Assembly (NCBI GenBank): GCA_964608765.1
Contig: CAZSPD010000004.1
Span: 658-64,657 of the forward strand
Length of the DNA stretch: 64,000 nucleotides
Direction of reading: 5' to 3'
Source: Candidatus Woesearchaeota archaeon
Lineage (GTDB): Archaea; Nanobdellota; Nanobdellia; Pacearchaeales; GW2011-AR1
In this document: piece by piece, positions 50,797-62,108 of the stretch
Layout: each line of letters starts with the position of its first letter
Position numbering within the stretch: the first letter of the stretch is position 1
Position numbers and translations under genes: made by a program
The notes under the pieces: generated by a model
Seen by the model: only the letters and a program-made list of their open reading frames with translations
Told to the model about the DNA's origin: nothing
Databases searched by the model: none

Positions 50797-51024
50797 TTAT
50801 TCTGTGTCGAATATCCAAGAAATTCCTCTGAGTTTTGTTTGGATTTTCTTGCTTTTTTCAAGATAATCTAAAATTGTCATGAGAGTTATGTGGTTGACTT
50901 TTCTTGGAAGTTTTTTCTTTAAGTCTGCAATTGTTATTGCTTCTTTTTTCAAACTAGTTTTTTTTAGAGTGTCCTCTACCATTAGAATTGTGTTCAGTGT
51001 TGGATAGTGGACACTCTTTTTCAT
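50797..51024 (-). CDS. Small wHTH protein
   Basis: YPTLNTILMVE, TIADLKKKLPRKV...LDYLEKSKKI. Confidence 0.7.
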   Translation of the reverse strand: MKKSVHYPTLNTILMVEDTLKKTSLKKEAITIADLKKKLPRKVNHITLMTILDYLEKSKKIQTKLRGISWIFDTE

Positions 51025-54512: not shown

Positions 54513-54746
54513 AGGAATTTTAAAGGGAAAATATAGATTAAATTAGATAATATCTTCTTCCTTTAGAAAAATTAAATTTATGTTTTATCTTAAAATAATG
54601 TAAGGTTATCTTAGTTAGATAACAGGATTTTCTTCTCACACCTTTTTAAAATATTCCTTAAAATGTTGCATCCAGCACTTATTACTATACGACACCATCG
54701 TAAAGTTTATTGTTCATAAAAACATTTAAATAGTATTGGTTCATAA

Positions 54747-55316
54747 ATGATACATATGGTTCAAAATAGAGACGATATAGAATCTGAAATAATATTGGTT
54801 TTGCTTAAGAATGAGACTCATCTTAGAGAGATAGCAAGGATTCTTGGAGAGTCGCATTCTACGCTATTAAGGAAGATTAAGGATTTGTTAAAAAATAATA
54901 TTTTAGATTATAAAAAACAGGGAAAGAATAAAGTTTTTTTTATTAGGAACAATCTAAAGGCCAGAAATTATGTTTATTCTGCAGAAATCTACAAGTTTAA
55001 CCAACTTCTAAGGAAACATCCAGAATTATCAATAATATTAGGAGATATAAAAAAGAATTTTCCAAGTGGAATGATTCTTCTATTTGGAAGTTATGCTAAG
55101 GGAATTGCAAGAACTGACAGTGATATAGATATTTATCTTGAGACAGAAGATAACAAACTTAAAAATAAAATAAGCGAATTAAATTCAAAATTAAGTATTA
55201 AGATAGGAGCTTTTGAAACAAAATCCTTATTAATTAAAGAAATTATAAAGAATCATATAATAGTAAGAGGTATAGAAGAGTTTTATGAAAGAACTGACTT
55301 TTTTAAGGAAACTTAG
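54747..55316 (+). CDS. wHTH-minimal nucleotidyltransferase (module 3)
   Basis: HLREIARILGESHST, LFGSYAKGIARTDSDIDI; probable start 54756. Confidence 0.9.
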   Translation: MIHMVQNRDDIESEIILVLLKNETHLREIARILGESHSTLLRKIKDLLKNNILDYKKQGKNKVFFIRNNLKARNYVYSAEIYKFNQLLRKHPELSIILGDIKKNFPSGMILLFGSYAKGIARTDSDIDIYLETEDNKLKNKISELNSKLSIKIGAFETKSLLIKEIIKNHIIVRGIEEFYERTDFFKET

Positions 55317-55776
55317 GAAAGATAAAATTCTTCAGTTAGTTGAACCTTCTGAAGAAATGAAATCTTCTTATCTAATTAAAGCAGAAAACTGCCTTAAATC
55401 TGCCAAAATACTTCATCAGAATCAGATTTATGAAAACTCTACATCAGAAGCCTATTACTCTATGTATAATTCACTCTTATCTTTATTATTCAATGCTGGA
55501 ATTAAATCTGAAAATCATTCTGCTTCTATTCTGCTTTTGGATATATTATTTAAAAAGAAAGAGATGGCAAAAACCCTCTTTTGGGCTAAAGGAGAAAGAA
55601 TAGATAAACAATATTATATAGAAACTCAGCAAATTGTAAAAGTAACAAATGAATCTTGCAATGATATGATATTGAAAGCAGAGGAATTTTTAATAAAGAT
55701 GAAATTATTAATATCTGAGATAAGCAACGAGAGTATTAGTTCTGTTAGAAAAGAATTTATAGACTTATTTGGATAA
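55285..55776 (+). CDS. HEPN-domain protein (module 3)
   Basis: EAYYSMYNSL, IKSENHSAS, ERIDKQYY. Confidence 0.85.
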   Translation: MKELTFLRKLRKDKILQLVEPSEEMKSSYLIKAENCLKSAKILHQNQIYENSTSEAYYSMYNSLLSLLFNAGIKSENHSASILLLDILFKKKEMAKTLFWAKGERIDKQYYIETQQIVKVTNESCNDMILKAEEFLIKMKLLISEISNESISSVRKEFIDLFG

Positions 55777-55832
55777 TTTAAGTGTAACTATTGCTCTATT
55801 ACAATATTTGATTTAGTATGATAACTTCCTTC

Positions 55833-55988
55833 TCACACTTTTTTAAAATACTCTTTAAAATGTTTCATCCAGCACTTCTTGTGGAAGATGAAAAACTCCT
55901 TTATTTTTTGTCCTCTTTTACCTATTAGCATTACATATTCGTCTTTTGATTCATCGATTCGATTGGAGCATTTTGAGCAGGTTTTCAT
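55833..55988 (-). CDS. Small Zn-finger-like protein
   Basis: MKTCSKCSNRI...FHKKCW (CxxC...HxxC); ATG at 55988 preferred over the longer ORF call. Confidence 0.65.
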   Translation of the reverse strand: MKTCSKCSNRIDESKDEYVMLIGKRGQKIKEFFIFHKKCWMKHFKEYFKKV

Positions 55989-56052: not shown

Positions 56053-56265
56053 ATGGCTAGTAAACCCATTAACAGAATAATGGAGGAAATCTTTGACTTA
56101 TTAAAAAAAGAAAAAGAATTATCTACAAGGCAATTATCAGTTAATATTGGCTCACAATGGATAACTATTGAAAAAGCTCTTGAATCTATGAAAAAATTAG
56201 AAGTTGTTAAGGAAAGAATTGATAAATTTGATAAAAGAAATACTCGGCTTTGGAGCCTAAAATGA
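56053..56265 (+). CDS. Small wHTH transcriptional regulator
   Basis: LSTRQLSVNIGSQWITIEKALESM, RLWSL; divergent from the Zn-finger gene. Confidence 0.7.
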   Translation: MASKPINRIMEEIFDLLKKEKELSTRQLSVNIGSQWITIEKALESMKKLEVVKERIDKFDKRNTRLWSLK

Positions 56266-56957
56266 AATTTAAGTTGAGGAGACTTGCTAGGGAGTTTAAT
56301 TTGAGATTCAGTGAAACATGGTTTAAACTTATTTGGATATCTAAGAGAGAGAATATACTTCTTGAGTATATGTGGATGTGTCCAGATCCAATTTACATTA
56401 AATATGGTAAAACTTCTTATGAAAGAGCTAAGAACATTGAGTGTTTTATTGATTCAGATGAGTTTAAAGAGTGCTTAGAGAGATTTGGAGGGCAGGTTAT
56501 TGAGAGGAATACTTTCAAAAAGTATTTTCCTGGATGGATAAATGAAATAGAAAATTTGGAGATTCGGAGAGAGCTACATACTATTTATAAGAAGATATCG
56601 GGTGCAATGGGGATGGGTCCTAGAATTGCTGTCTTGACAAAATCTTCTAAAAAAAGTGAGATAGAGAAAATTAAGTCATTTGTTTTATTTCATGAATTCA
56701 TTCATATATTAGTTAATGAAAATAAACTTGATTTTAAAGATTGGAGATACAATGAAGGTTTGGTTACTTATTTACAAGAATTTTCTAATAAAAAGATTAA
56801 TAAGTTGGATGAGGAAGCTAGGAAATCTACTTACAATTTCCAAAAACAGTATTATGTTTATGCTATTAAGTTTAGAGAATTGCTTAAAGGAGATAATGTT
56901 CCAGAAAAAAGAAAACAAAAAATAATCGAACTAAAAAACTCTTTAGGAAGGGGATAA
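56250..56957 (+). CDS. Putative gluzincin-type metallopeptidase
   Basis: FHEFIH followed by YNEGLVTY. Confidence 0.6.
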   Translation: MEPKMKFKLRRLAREFNLRFSETWFKLIWISKRENILLEYMWMCPDPIYIKYGKTSYERAKNIECFIDSDEFKECLERFGGQVIERNTFKKYFPGWINEIENLEIRRELHTIYKKISGAMGMGPRIAVLTKSSKKSEIEKIKSFVLFHEFIHILVNENKLDFKDWRYNEGLVTYLQEFSNKKINKLDEEARKSTYNFQKQYYVYAIKFRELLKGDNVPEKRKQKIIELKNSLGRG

Positions 56958-59505: not shown

Positions 59506-59660
59506 TTACTTCTTCATCCGCTTATACAGTAATCCCCAGAACAATACAAAATATATAAGGAAGAACAACATTCCTGAATAACTATGGTAAAGCCCAAGTG
59601 CTATATTGGGGGAGATGTATGCTCCTACAAGCATTAGTGTGAAAACTCTTAGTATATTAA
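59506..59660 (-). pseudogene. Orphan 3' end of the archaeosortase gene
   Basis: 59558-59660 is 102/103 identical to 61219-61321 and continues in frame as IYFVLFWGLLYKRMKK*. Confidence 0.9.
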
Positions 59661-59750
59661 TTACTTTTTCTAAGAAATTTACTTAGATAACAGAATTCTA
59701 CTTCTTCATTAAAACTTCAATCTTTTTTCAAGAATATATAAACAAGTATT

Positions 59751-59800
59751 TAACTAAAGTTAAACTATAATTAAACTTTAGTATAACTAAAGTTAAACTA
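59751..59800. promoter_or_regulatory. Duplicated 17-bp box upstream of the AAA ATPase
   Basis: taactaaagttaaacta at 59751 and 59784, with an inverted partial copy (aactttagt) between them. Confidence 0.6.
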
Positions 59801-59848
59801 CACATTAATAATAGTAAGGTTTATAAATAAGCTCTATCTTTATTAAGT

Positions 59849-61042
59849 ATGAATGTAGCGACAAAATATACTGAGAGAAATATAAAAGAAAGATTTGATA
59901 AGTTAATTAAGCCCTATCAGGTCATTGCAATAGTTGGGGCAAGACAAGCTGGCAAAACAACATTCCTAAAAGAACAAGCAAAGAGATTCAAGAGTAATTA
60001 TCTTCTATTTGATGATCCGGATATAAGGGAATTATTTGATGAAGATATTAAAAAATTTGAAATTCAAAATATAGAAGGGAATGAACTTTCTGTATTGGAT
60101 GAAGTTCAGTATTGTAAAGATGCAGGAAGGAAACTGAAATATCTTGCAGATAATAGCAGAAAGTTATGGGTAACCTCTTCTTCTGAAATTTTGCTAAGTA
60201 AAGAGGTATTATCTTATCTTGTGGGAAGGGTTTCAATAATAAAACTTTACCCATTTTCAATAGAAGAATTTCTCGATTTAAAAAACTTAAAAGAATTTTC
60301 TAAAATTACATTAAAAAGAGCATTATGGGAGCATATGACATTTGGAGGATACCCTAAAATAAATCTCACAGGAGATATAGAATTGAAAAAAACTATGCTT
60401 AAAGATTTATATGAAACAATGATTCTCAAGGATATTGCAAGAACTTTTTCAATAGATGATTTATCCTCTTTAGAAAAATGTTTAAGGTATCTAGCAATTA
60501 ATACAGGAAATTTGATTTCCTACGATTCACTTTCTAAAGATGTGAAGATTTCATTTCAGACTCTGAAAAAATATTTAGAATCAATGGAAAAAAGTTATCT
60601 ATTATATTCAGTTCAGCCATTTTTTAAAAATAAGCTTAAGGAGATAATTAAACAGCCTAAAATCTATTTTATTGATACTGGATTGAGAAATTTTATAGCA
60701 AAATCTTTTAATGATGAACCAGAGGGTAATTTGTTTGAAAATTATATATTCACAGAACTATTGAAAATGGGCTTCTCGCCAAAGTATTGGAGAACAAAGA
60801 CAAAGATGGAAATTGACTTTGTAATAGAAAAAGAATCAAATATAATACCTATAGAGGTTAAAATCAATGCAAAATCAGAGAAAGTTGAGAGGAATATTAG
60901 AGCATTTATAGAGGAATATAAACCAAAAACTGCAATTATTGTTTCTTATGAAGGAGAGAAATCAGAGATAGAAGTCGATGGTTGCAAAGTTGTATTTACA
61001 GATTTAATTGGTATGAAAAAAATTTTATCTAAATTCACCTAA
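59849..61042 (+). CDS. AAA_14-family ATPase with DUF4143-like C-terminal domain
   Basis: GARQAGKTT, LDEVQY, GRVSII, FGGYP, KIYFIDTGL, EIDFVIE...PIEVK. Confidence 0.92.
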   Translation: MNVATKYTERNIKERFDKLIKPYQVIAIVGARQAGKTTFLKEQAKRFKSNYLLFDDPDIRELFDEDIKKFEIQNIEGNELSVLDEVQYCKDAGRKLKYLADNSRKLWVTSSSEILLSKEVLSYLVGRVSIIKLYPFSIEEFLDLKNLKEFSKITLKRALWEHMTFGGYPKINLTGDIELKKTMLKDLYETMILKDIARTFSIDDLSSLEKCLRYLAINTGNLISYDSLSKDVKISFQTLKKYLESMEKSYLLYSVQPFFKNKLKEIIKQPKIYFIDTGLRNFIAKSFNDEPEGNLFENYIFTELLKMGFSPKYWRTKTKMEIDFVIEKESNIIPIEVKINAKSEKVERNIRAFIEEYKPKTAIIVSYEGEKSEIEVDGCKVVFTDLIGMKKILSKFT

Positions 61043-61071
61043 AATTTGATTTCAATTAGATAACTATTATC

Positions 61072-61180
61072 GTTTCATCCACTAAACTTCATCCTTGAAG
61101 TTTTGGTACTCAGTGTTTCATCCACTAAACTTCATCCTTGAAGTTTTGGTACTCAGTGTTTCATCCATTAAACTTCATCC
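61072..61180. repeat. 43-bp tandem repeat, 2.5 copies, containing an 8-bp-stem hairpin
   Basis: gtttcatccactaaacttcatccttgaagttttggtactcagt at 61072 and 61115, partial at 61158; AAACTTCA-TCCT-TGAAGTTT. Confidence 0.92.
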
Positions 61181-62108
61181 ATTTGTAGAGTAGACCCCAG
61201 AAGAGGATGAAGTATATTAGGAAGAACAACATTCCTGAATAACTATGGTAAAGCCCAAGTGCTATATTAGGGGAGATGTATGCTCCTACAAGCATTAGTG
61301 TGAAAACTCTTAGTATATTAAATGCAAATGCTCCTAGAATTGCAGGTATGAACAATATAGCTGCTTTCTTTTTGTTTATTTTATTCCAGTCTAAAAATAC
61401 TATGAAAAGATATAATGCAGTGAAGATAAATATACTGTATATTCCACTGCAAGCTTCTGCAATTATAACAGAGAATCCATTAACAGTTATTCCATCTGTT
61501 CCAAAGATTATAACATCTACCCCAATTATTTTTAATAAGAAAGTAGTTGATTTCATAACACCTAAACTTAGATAAGTCCATAAACTCCAGACAAGATTCA
61601 TGAATGAGTAAGTTATTATTGCAAATATTAAAAAGTAGAATAATTCTTTCTTAAATTTTTTAATAAAGTTATTTGTGAGATTTATTCCAAATACTCCCCA
61701 TGCAAGGCAGAAAAATACAGAGAGTGCAAGAAGGTGAAACCAGATTATATTGAAGAGTGTTGGGTTGAGAGTATTTATGTTGTTGCTTACTAAATAAAAA
61801 GCACCTAATAGAACACATGAGATTCCAATTAGTAAATAGTCTTTTTTCTCTCTTTTGAATTTTCCTAATTCACTTATTCTTTTTCTATAAAGAAGAATAA
61901 ACCCTACTATTGAGAAAAGAATTATGTATCCTGCTCTTCCGTAAATTTCAATTTTCCATTTAGTTAACAAATTATTAGAAAATACACTTATACCTACAAT
62001 AAAAGAAAATACGATAAATAAAATAATAAAGATACCTGTTTTCCATAAGAACTGCTTAAGTCCTGGATTTAACTTAGGTTTGGCTTGGGTTTTTCCCTTA
62101 GTTTTCAT
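61161..62108 (-). CDS. Archaeosortase/exosortase family protein
   Basis: Polytopic; IIAEACSGIYS (Cys), NILRV (Arg), LYH (His). Confidence 0.88.
   Translation of the reverse strand: MKTKGKTQAKPKLNPGLKQFLWKTGIFIILFIVFSFIVGISVFSNNLLTKWKIEIYGRAGYIILFSIVGFILLYRKRISELGKFKREKKDYLLIGISCVLLGAFYLVSNNINTLNPTLFNIIWFHLLALSVFFCLAWGVFGINLTNNFIKKFKKELFYFLIFAIITYSFMNLVWSLWTYLSLGVMKSTTFLLKIIGVDVIIFGTDGITVNGFSVIIAEACSGIYSIFIFTALYLFIVFLDWNKINKKKAAILFIPAILGAFAFNILRVFTLMLVGAYISPNIALGLYHSYSGMLFFLIYFILFWGLLYKWMKFNG

What the first reader, a model, noticed from the sequence alone, without database searches (positions are those of the whole stretch)
54632..55877. MNT-HEPN module 3 sits between two versions of the same gene end
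Seen: the last 14 codons of the Zn-finger gene (55829-55877) recur 1197 bp away (54632-54680) with 4 mismatches, 3 of them synonymous (aaa/aag, gag/gaa, aaa/aag) and one K/Q change. Inference: both copies evolved as coding sequence, so one arrived from a diverged allele together with the TA pair rather than decaying as a local duplicate.
Basis: partly seen in the sequence, partly recalled or inferred. Interest (0 to 1): 0.65.

Follow-up and report, generated by a model that had tools for sequence, protein, structure and literature searches.

The report
Toxin-antitoxin cassette between duplicated gene tails
A two-gene toxin-antitoxin cassette with no recombinase of its own sits directly behind a tiny zinc-ribbon gene of a small-genome (DPANN, Pacearchaeota-like) archaeon, next to a displaced second copy of that gene's last 14 codons. 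The same gene end has captured other cargo in related genomes, so it seems to act as a reusable docking site for mobile cassettes.

Summary
Window 54632-54680 and 55829-55877 match at 45/49. With one 5-nt gap the repeat extends to about 70 nt and includes about 20 nt beyond the stop codon. Copy B is the true end of a 51-aa CxxC...HxxC gene on the minus strand. Copy A is an orphan. Between them lies a self-contained wHTH-MNT/HEPN operon.

The four differences are biased towards synonymous changes (P about 0.005-0.02). The layout recurs: 4 of 8 distinct loci with this rare gene family carry a second tail, or a second near-whole gene copy, with different cargo in between.

In a second wastewater population the same cassette is about 99% identical, while the Zn gene is 93% and the further flank 85% identical. 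The sequence left of the orphan tail is unrelated. The stretches that travel with the cassette are the 5' stub of tail A and the 3' end of tail B.

Best reading: a cassette carrying a copy of the gene tail was inserted by a single crossover inside codons 42-45 (Campbell-type), using host recombination or a recombinase acting in trans. No integrase, attC site, terminal inverted repeat or excision joint was found. This is a new variant of known kinds (insertion with long target duplication; e14/icd-type integration).

The parts
54611..54683 (-). Direct-repeat copy A: the orphan tail of the Zn-ribbon gene. The coding part is 54639-54680 (KCWMQHFKEYFKKV), the stop is 54636-54638, and about 25 nt of 3' UTR-like sequence follows. 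There is no gene body upstream.
54602..54624 (.). Small palindrome GTTATCT-TAGTT-AGATAAC just beyond the orphan tail's stop. Its right arm is part of the motif TTAGATAACAGGATT, which is shared with the left end of the ATPase cassette at 59683.
54684..54746 (+). Spacer plus the cassette's own promoter region (TTTAAATAG box, TGGTTCA boxes). From about 54718 onwards it is conserved with the same cassette in unrelated genomes.
54747..55316 (+). wHTH-MNT nucleotidyltransferase (189 aa), the predicted antitoxin. It belongs to a very large, tightly conserved DPANN family.
   Evidence: Pfam Polbeta/NTP_transf_2/HTH; 1181 relatives at about 75% identity
55285..55776 (+). HEPN protein (163 aa), the predicted toxin. 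It overlaps the MNT gene by 32 nt.
   Evidence: Pfam HEPN, 1.5e-9
55789..55852 (.). A 64-nt segment (cassette trailer, Zn 3' UTR, stop and last 6 codons) that is missing in the second population. There the Zn gene ends ...HFKGYA* or ...HFKGYT*.
   Evidence: (joint 55788->55853)
55812..55880 (-). Direct-repeat copy B: the 3' UTR, stop (55833-55835) and last 14-15 codons of the intact Zn-ribbon gene.
55833..55988 (-). Zn-ribbon gene (51 aa, CxxC...HxxC). It is an orphan family with no Pfam or PDB match and is rare in public data.
56054..56957 (+). Host-side flank: a small wHTH gene divergent from the Zn gene, overlapping a HExxH protein gene. This flank is 85% identical in the second population.
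59512..61321 (.). A parallel case in the same window: an AAA_14/DUF4143 ATPase gene between two copies of the sortase gene tail (149 nt, 91%). Its inner ends carry the same two compound motifs as the TA cassette (59683-59697; 61044-61064).

Best explanation
The wHTH-MNT/HEPN pair is a recombinase-less accessory cassette that docked at the 3' end of the small Zn-ribbon gene.

The incoming DNA, most simply a circle, carried the TA operon with its own promoter plus a roughly 70-nt copy of a Zn-gene end from another allele. That copy comprised the last 14 codons, the stop and about 20 nt beyond. One reciprocal crossover inside codons 42-45 of the resident gene inserted the circle (Campbell-type 'pop-in').

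As a result the resident gene keeps an intact frame, made of the host 5' part plus the incoming 3' end (tail B). The displaced resident end, now fused to the incoming 5' stub, lies on the far side of the cassette as the orphan tail A. Host homologous recombination is the most economical agent.

Once in place, the TA pair would be expected to disfavour its own loss through recombination between the repeats. This rests on what is known of toxin-antitoxin addiction, not on anything tested here.

Shown: the repeat; the gene/orphan geometry; coding-type divergence; recurrence of the layout at this gene family with four different cargoes; and near-identity of the cassette in a diverged second population.

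Inferred: the circular intermediate, the crossover position and the use of host recombination.
For: 1. Geometry of gene, cargo and orphan tail, with the repeat abutting the cargo on both sides.

2. Recurrence in 4 of 8 distinct Zn-gene loci.
- L001: methyltransferase between the gene and a 23-codon orphan.
- L013: MNT(204)/HEPN(178) between two near full-length copies.
- L017: MNT(190)/HEPN(179) between a 9-codon remnant and a 35-codon fragment.
- The window itself.
The three TA pairs are only 26-34% identical to each other, so these are independent captures.

3. L002 has a single copy. It is syntenic with L013 upstream of Zn1 (88%) and downstream of Zn2 (84%), so the extra copy plus TA pair in L013 is an insertion.

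4. Differences between copies fall at third codon positions: window 3/4, L001 8/9, L013 14/20.

5. Second population (Logan contigs L003 and L022, runs X10-X12):
- cassette 54735-55788: 11 differences in 1054 nt;
- tail A: 4 differences in 46 nt;
- Zn tail: 3 in 43, on the same contig as the HEPN end (2 in 336);
- Zn body: 7 in 106;
- HExxH flank: 85% identical;
- no similarity left of 54635.

6. Codon table. AAT AAG TGC TGG ATG C (tail A) and AAA G.. (tail B) are the same in both populations. Codon 42 position 3 through codon 44 position 3 follows the host in both copies. This is the pattern expected from one crossover with a short conversion tract.

7. No integrase or transposase among the ORFs tested in the window. 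No terminal inverted repeats.

8. The same 189-aa MNT cassette sits in many unrelated contexts. In some of them it lies between locus-specific direct repeats (L006 73 nt; L004 39 nt).
Against: No circular form, empty site or excision joint was seen. Only assembled contigs were available, and these drop rare variants.

The crossover inference rests on one 1.2-kb contig (L003) plus short contig pieces. That L022 comes from the same organism as L003 is inferred, not shown.

The donor-to-host switch points are the same in both populations. That fits a fixed, site-specific exchange point, or a single ancestral insertion followed by replacement of the flanks, at least as well as two independent homologous crossovers.

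Two compound motifs are shared by this cassette and the ATPase cassette at the sortase gene. They hint at defined recombination sites.

Four other contexts of the same cassette (L008-L011) show no clear flanking repeats.

Confidence: 0.45

Rival explanations
1. Site-specific integration by a recombinase acting in trans. The cassette would be a non-autonomous integrative element, comparable to Xer-exploiting IMEX elements or to integrase-less remnants of archaeal integrated elements. Its att site would overlap the Zn-gene tail or the T(T/A)(A/T)GATAAC core just beyond the stop. The element would carry a substitute tail so that the gene stays intact, as e14 and phage 21 do at icd.
For: The donor/host switch points lie in the same interval of 10 nt or less (codons 42-45) in both populations.

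GATAACAG[AG]ATT occurs only at 54618 and 59686. ATTTGATTT-N5-6-GATAAC occurs only at 55806 and 61044. These positions are the left and right inner ends of two cassettes with unrelated cargo and unrelated target genes. About 0.04 occurrences of each motif are expected by chance.

In the second population tail A is abutted by ...AATTTGATTT..TATAAC, which looks like another cassette's right end.

A 6+7+6 palindrome, GTTATC-TTAGTTA-GATAAC, lies at copy A.
Against: No recombinase gene lies in the cassette or among the ORFs tested in the window.

Repeat boundaries differ widely among loci: whole gene, 23 codons, 14 codons, 9 codons. That is not expected for one fixed att site.

The motifs are absent from 137 kb of related loci, and they were noticed post hoc.

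The putative overlap region differs at 3 of 7 positions between the hosts, which would normally hinder tyrosine-recombinase exchange.
Confidence: 0.25
2. Pure 'insertion with long target duplication'. Both tails would be copies of the resident gene end made during insertion, for example by repair synthesis across staggered breaks or by template switching. The present differences would then be later mutations smoothed by gene conversion from the selected copy.
For: Both tails in each population share that population's own synonymous states at codons 42-44.

Tails A and B are both about 7-9% diverged between the populations, like the host gene and unlike the cassette.

The category is documented for restriction-modification units in bacteria, with repeats of more than 30 bp and no mobility genes (PMC2853133).
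Against: The copy-specific differences (K/Q, AAA/AAG at codon 45, AAA/AAG at codon 50, AAT/AAG at the boundary) are identical in both populations. They either predate the split or travel with the cassette.

The L001 tails switch abruptly from synonymous-only differences over 16 codons to unrelated ends (EYWELEGK* versus EYYQLNKKK*). This looks like two allele types, not decay.
Confidence: 0.15
3. An old tandem duplication of the Zn gene, unrelated to the cassette. The TA pair would have landed between the paralogues later, and the distal copy would have lost its 5' part.
For: L013 has two near full-length copies that both look functional.
Against: In L013 the duplication starts at codon 3 and excludes the promoter.

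Four loci have four different repeat boundaries, each abutting its cargo.

The same scar occurs at unrelated genes: the sortase tail in this window and the tail of a 212-aa gene in L004.

L002, L012, L015 and L016 have one copy only.
Confidence: 0.07

Closest known systems
Insertion with long target duplication of restriction-modification gene units (Nobusato et al. 2000; Furuta, Abe and Kobayashi 2010, PMC2853133)
   Same: A small selfish ('addiction-type') gene unit with no mobility gene lies between direct repeats longer than 30 bp that overlap the 3' end of a neighbouring gene. Repeat lengths vary. The repeats differ slightly from each other.
   Different: The published cases are bacterial R-M units, and no archaeal case survived that screen. 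Here the cargo is an MNT/HEPN pair in a DPANN archaeon. Part of the repeat appears to travel with the cassette rather than being copied from the target, and the same gene tail has been used repeatedly by different cargo.
Prophage e14 / phage 21 integrated in the 3' end of E. coli icd (own knowledge, not checked here)
   Same: The element supplies a substitute gene end, so the host gene stays intact. The displaced original end remains as an orphan beyond the element. The two ends differ mainly at synonymous sites.
   Different: Those elements encode their own integrase and are tens of kb long. Here the insert is 1.1 kb with no recombinase.
Integron gene cassettes and CALINs, including those reported in Archaea (Ghaly et al. 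2022, PMC9668308)
   Same: Small promoter-bearing or promoterless cassettes, often TA pairs, collect at a site. Integrase-less clusters exist and can be serviced in trans. Nanoarchaeota are among the archaeal carriers.
   Different: The repeats here are gene tails, not attC hairpins. They have no R''/R' pairing and only weak folding (z = -1.0 to -2.4). There is no IntI, no array in a single orientation, and the cassette has its own promoter.
Campbell-type single-crossover integration ('pop-in/pop-out') of circular DNA, as used in archaeal genetics (own knowledge)
   Same: It predicts exactly this product: intact gene, insert, then a truncated second copy, with each copy a donor/host chimera.
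   Different: It is known as a laboratory method and for plasmids. It has not been described as a natural route for spreading TA cassettes via a portable tail of about 50-70 nt.

Membership tests
Type II/VII MNT-HEPN toxin-antitoxin pair (the cargo) | Minimal nucleotidyltransferase with a GS...DxD motif | tested here: met
   Pfam Polbeta 9e-9 and NTP_transf_2 5e-8. GSYAKGIARTDSDIDIY is read directly from the sequence.
Type II/VII MNT-HEPN toxin-antitoxin pair (the cargo) | HEPN domain with a catalytic Rx4-6H motif | tested here: inconclusive
   The HEPN domain is present (PF05168, 1.5e-9). No Rx4-6H is visible in the 163-aa sequence, only KSENH and ERIDKQYY.
Type II/VII MNT-HEPN toxin-antitoxin pair (the cargo) | Two overlapping co-oriented genes with their own promoter; toxicity neutralised by the partner | tested here: inconclusive
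   A 32-nt overlap and a conserved upstream TATA-like box are seen. Toxicity cannot be tested with these tools.
Insertion with long target duplication | Direct repeats longer than 30 bp flanking an insert that has no mobility gene | tested here: met
   A repeat of 49-73 nt. The insert encodes only MNT and HEPN.
Insertion with long target duplication | Both repeats align to one copy in an empty-site genome | tested here: inconclusive
   No empty site was found for the window's own lineage. For the relatives, single-copy L002 versus L013 shows the insertion.
Integrase-borne integrative element at a gene 3' end (e14/icd type; archaeal integrated elements) | Integrase gene within the element | tested here: not met
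   Only two genes lie between the repeats, and neither is a recombinase.
Integrase-borne integrative element at a gene 3' end (e14/icd type; archaeal integrated elements) | The element carries a substitute gene end, and the displaced end persists | tested here: met
Integrase-borne integrative element at a gene 3' end (e14/icd type; archaeal integrated elements) | Excised circular form or empty attB detectable | tested here: inconclusive
   No joints linking the two tails were seen in the contigs of 12 runs. No raw reads were available.
Integron cassette / CALIN | attC site: an imperfect palindrome with R'' RYYYAAC and R' GTTRRRY that folds as a hairpin | tested here: not met
   The repeats do not fold end to end (z = -1.0 to -2.4). 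Only a 7-bp stem is present, in copy A alone.
Integron cassette / CALIN | IntI nearby or a co-oriented cassette array | tested here: not met
   No integrase among the tested ORFs. The neighbouring genes have mixed orientation.
IS / transposon | Transposase, terminal inverted repeats and a short target duplication | tested here: not met
   No transposase. Only chance-level inverted repeats. The duplication is 49-73 nt.

The most novel reading that the evidence does not exclude
Small-genome DPANN archaea may have a cassette-capture system in which the end of a conserved small gene serves as a portable docking ('att') site carried by minimal, recombinase-less cassettes.

Exchange would occur at a defined short interval, here codons 42-45 of the Zn-ribbon gene. 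It would perhaps be catalysed by a host recombinase in trans that recognises T(T/A)(A/T)GATAAC-type cores with conserved inner ends. Functionally this would be an archaeal analogue of integrons or IMEX elements, built on gene tails rather than on attC or dif.

The orphan tails would be a readable record of successive captures and would be kept 'in frame' by repeated swapping with the live gene end.
Probability: 0.2. Interest if true: 0.8.

Novelty: new variant of a known kind. Interest (0 to 1): 0.55.

Why it matters
DPANN archaea have tiny genomes. In the 21 related loci fetched here, recombinase genes turned up only as the XerA-like operon of L018, L019 and L021. How they gain and shuffle accessory and defence genes is poorly understood.

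This locus gives a compact, sequence-level case. A TA cassette is about 99% identical in two populations whose surrounding genes are only 85-93% identical. In both it sits at the same gene end, and the two tails have a chimeric make-up that points to the crossover site.

Together with three further captures at the same rare gene family, this makes 'gene tails as reusable docking sites' a testable route of horizontal transfer that needs no element-encoded integrase. It also warns annotators that short orphan gene ends next to TA pairs in these genomes are insertion scars, not decayed paralogues.

Tried and rejected
I could not search the genome for paralogues of the Zn gene, for other copies of the repeat, or for recombinases.
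- Integron attC reading: rejected on folding and motif grounds.
- Transposon reading: no terminal inverted repeats and no transposase.
- Structured RNA in the repeats: only a sub-threshold U6 hit.
- Carriage on viruses: none found for the Zn family or the MNT.
- Excision or empty-site joints: none in the contigs of 12 runs.
- RNA runs: none held.
- Deciding the native tail from homologues: both K and Q, and both tail endings, fit the family consensus.
- Base composition: the cassette does not stand out.
- Function of the Zn protein: no Pfam or PDB match. One 672-aa hit in the representative search is a spurious tandem repeat.
- Flanking repeats as a universal feature of this cassette: not so. 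L008-L011 have none that exceed chance.
- L013 Zn1 versus Zn2 as donor versus host: both are about 85-86% identical to L002 and mosaic, so no assignment was possible.
- One of my own script steps was mis-framed (window B versus L003 B) and another was mis-registered (last block).

Full report
**What is in the window.** The window is AT-rich (29.5% GC). On the minus strand copy B (55829-55877) is the end of a 51-aa ORF, 55833..55988, which reads MKTCSKC...FHKKCWMKHFKEYFKKV*. Copy A (54632-54680) reads KCWMQHFKEYFKKV* and is preceded by only six more in-frame codons.

A gapped alignment extends the repeat to 54611-54683 versus 55812-55880, so about 20 nt beyond the stop codon is duplicated too. 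Chance is excluded. Between the copies lie two overlapping genes: a wHTH-MNT nucleotidyltransferase (54747..55316) and a HEPN protein (55285..55776). There is nothing else in the insert. It has no recombinase and no terminal inverted repeats. The repeats do not fold like integron attC sites and match no RNA family.

**Do the two tails differ like coding sequence?** Yes. Only 11-18% of random single-base changes in these codons would be synonymous, so 3 of 4 gives P = 0.005-0.02. On its own this is thin, so I looked for independent cases.

**The Zn-ribbon family and its other loci.** The family is rare. The word-indexed search found one homologue. The full profile search found 26 representative clusters among 1.84 billion proteins. 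There is no Pfam or PDB match.

Collection scans gave eight distinct loci. Four of them have a second tail:

- **The window.**
- **L001.** The gene is followed by a SAM methyltransferase gene and then an orphan, FFIFHKICWMEHFEEYYQLNKKK*. Against the live tail this orphan shows 8 synonymous differences and 1 non-synonymous over 16 codons (P<1e-4). It then switches abruptly to an unrelated ending.
- **L013.** Two near full-length copies flank an antisense MNT(204)/HEPN(178) pair. The repeat runs from codon 3 into the 3' UTR, and 14 of its 20 differences are at third codon positions.
- **L017.** A 9-codon remnant (HFKEFYGRV) and a 35-codon fragment flank MNT(190)/HEPN(179).

The three TA pairs are only 26-34% identical to each other, so these are separate captures. 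L002 has a single copy. It is syntenic with L013 on both outer sides (88% upstream of Zn1, 84% downstream of Zn2), which shows that the extra copy plus TA pair in L013 is an insertion. L012, L015 and L016 have one tail only.

**The cassette as a mobile unit.** The 189-aa MNT belongs to a very large and unusually uniform DPANN family, with 1181 hits at about 75% identity. Makarova et al. made a comparable remark about unusual conservation for a different, fused MNT-HEPN cluster in DPANN (PMC6393860).

The cassette, with its conserved promoter, sits in many unrelated contexts. In some of these it lies between locus-specific direct repeats (L006/L007 73 nt at 85%; L004/L005 39 nt at 97%). In others it does not (L008-L011).

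**A second population.** Runs X1-X9 hold the window's own strain with no variation and no joints. Wastewater runs X10-X12, and Logan contigs L003 and L022, hold a relative. Its identity to the window varies sharply along the region:

| Segment | Differences or identity |
|---|---|
| Left of 54635 (a 3,014-nt X11 contig diverges exactly at tail A's stop) | no similarity |
| Tail A | 4 differences in 46 nt, all four synonymous |
| Spacer | 3 in 63 |
| MNT gene | 8 in 570 |
| HEPN gene | 2 in 460 |
| HEPN end, on one X12 contig | 2 in 336 |
| Zn tail, on the same X12 contig | 3 in 43 |
| Zn gene body | 7 in 106 |
| wHTH/HExxH flank | 85% identical |

X10 has the same 25-nt insertion as L022. So the cassette is an island of about 99% identity inside flanks of 85-93% identity, at the same gene end. 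I read this as recent horizontal transfer.

This population also lacks window 55789-55852. Its Zn gene therefore ends ...HFKGYA* or ...HFKGYT*.

**Where the exchange happened.** The evidence is the codon table.

- The 5' stub of tail A (AAT AAG TGC TGG ATG C) and the start of the 3' part of tail B (AAA G...) are the same in both populations.
- The 3' part of tail A and its downstream flank follow the host.
- Codon 42 position 3 to codon 44 position 3 is host-specific in both copies (A, T, T in the window; G, C, C in L003).

This is what a single crossover in codons 42-45 produces when an incoming tail pairs with the resident tail and a short conversion tract forms. Each tail would then be a donor/host chimera. 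The inference rests on few, short contigs and I mark it as such.

**Mechanism.** I favour Campbell-type insertion of a cassette that carries a tail copy, by host recombination (0.45).

A recombinase acting in trans at a defined site is a serious rival (0.25). The switch points coincide in both populations. In addition, two compound motifs each occur exactly twice in the 64 kb, at the left and right inner ends of this cassette and of the ATPase cassette behind the sortase gene. About 0.04 occurrences of each are expected by chance, and the motifs are absent from 137 kb of related loci.

Pure target duplication (0.15) and an old tandem paralogue (0.07) fit less well.

**Comparison with known systems.** The closest published kinds are insertion with long target duplication of R-M units, a screen in which no archaeal case survived (PMC2853133), and e14/phage 21 at icd. 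Archaeal integrons and CALINs exist, including in Nanoarchaeota (PMC9668308), but the defining attC feature is not met here.

Earlier notes of this scan report similar scars in other DPANN genomes. I used them as leads only.

**Limits.** Only contigs were available, not raw reads, and no RNA data were held.

Noticed in passing
window 54615-54629, 55806-55825, 59683-59697, 61044-61064: The TA cassette and the ATPase cassette behind the sortase gene share about 25-nt boundary sequences. Left ends: TTAGTTAGATAACAGGATT-TTCTTCT versus TTACTTAGATAACAGAATTCTACTTCT (24/27). Right inner ends: ATTTGATTT-N5-6-GATAACT. Each compound motif occurs only at these two places in 64 kb, where about 0.04 is expected. 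This is either a site-specific core or carried-over Zn 3' UTR.
   Followed up: partly
window 56262-56954; L018 4166-6235; L019; L021 110-2063: Homologues of the HExxH protein next to the Zn gene sit, in relatives, in an operon beside rpS9/rpL13. The operon runs XerA-like tyrosine recombinase (277 aa), then HExxH, then a Zn-ribbon protein with the 'Recombinase' (PF07508) domain. The window copy has a small wHTH gene upstream instead.
   Followed up: partly
L002 5154, 6198, 8353; L014; L013 7203; L015 1949, 5428, 7940; L017 7675 and 2489-2674: Short fragments of the 5' end of a GT4 glycosyltransferase gene (K-I-L-M-L-N-Y-E-F-P-P-L-G-G-G) are scattered as orphan 'heads'. Two of them bracket a 2.1-kb block right behind the L002 Zn gene. 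So gene heads, as well as gene tails, are duplicated around inserted blocks.
   Followed up: partly
L004 4928-4966 and 6026-6064; L011 about 2400-2460 and 3535: In some genomes the MNT/HEPN cassette's own 3' trailer (AAACTCTGCAAAAATGGGC.G.T.CG.GCCC, with a small GC hairpin) is also present upstream of the cassette, behind a neighbouring AbiE pair. This gives the locus the look of a small cassette array.
   Followed up: partly
window 54696-54636 (minus strand): The orphan tail is an intact 20-codon ORF (MVSYSNKCWMQHFKEYFKKV; MMSYSN... in the second population). It starts about 30 nt from the near-palindromic TATA-like box of the MNT promoter. Expression as a micro-protein is conceivable but untested.
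   Followed up: no
L012 1316-2471 and 4001-8035: L012 carries an orthologue of the window's MNT/HEPN module 2 (67% and 84% identity) 1.5 kb upstream of its Zn gene. Downstream it carries genes that appear to correspond to the window's glycan-island genes, judged by eye. Its Zn protein has a longer ending that runs into the convergent glycosyltransferase gene.
   Followed up: no
L002 6216-8264 versus L013 6418-7614: The genes behind the Zn gene (a 125-aa protein and an NYN/LabA-like protein) are in the opposite order in these two related genomes. This suggests shuffling of small gene blocks at this site.
   Followed up: no
window 50797-51024 and L006 1102-1332: A 75-aa protein (M..HYPTLNTI.MVED.LKK...) lies close to an MNT/HEPN cassette both in the window (module 2) and in an unrelated genome (the 189-aa type cassette).
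   Followed up: no
window 61072-61180: Three tandem copies of about 55 nt (GTTTCATCCACTAAACTTCATCCTTGAAGTTTTGGTACTCA) lie between the ATPase cassette and the stop of the sortase gene.
   Followed up: no
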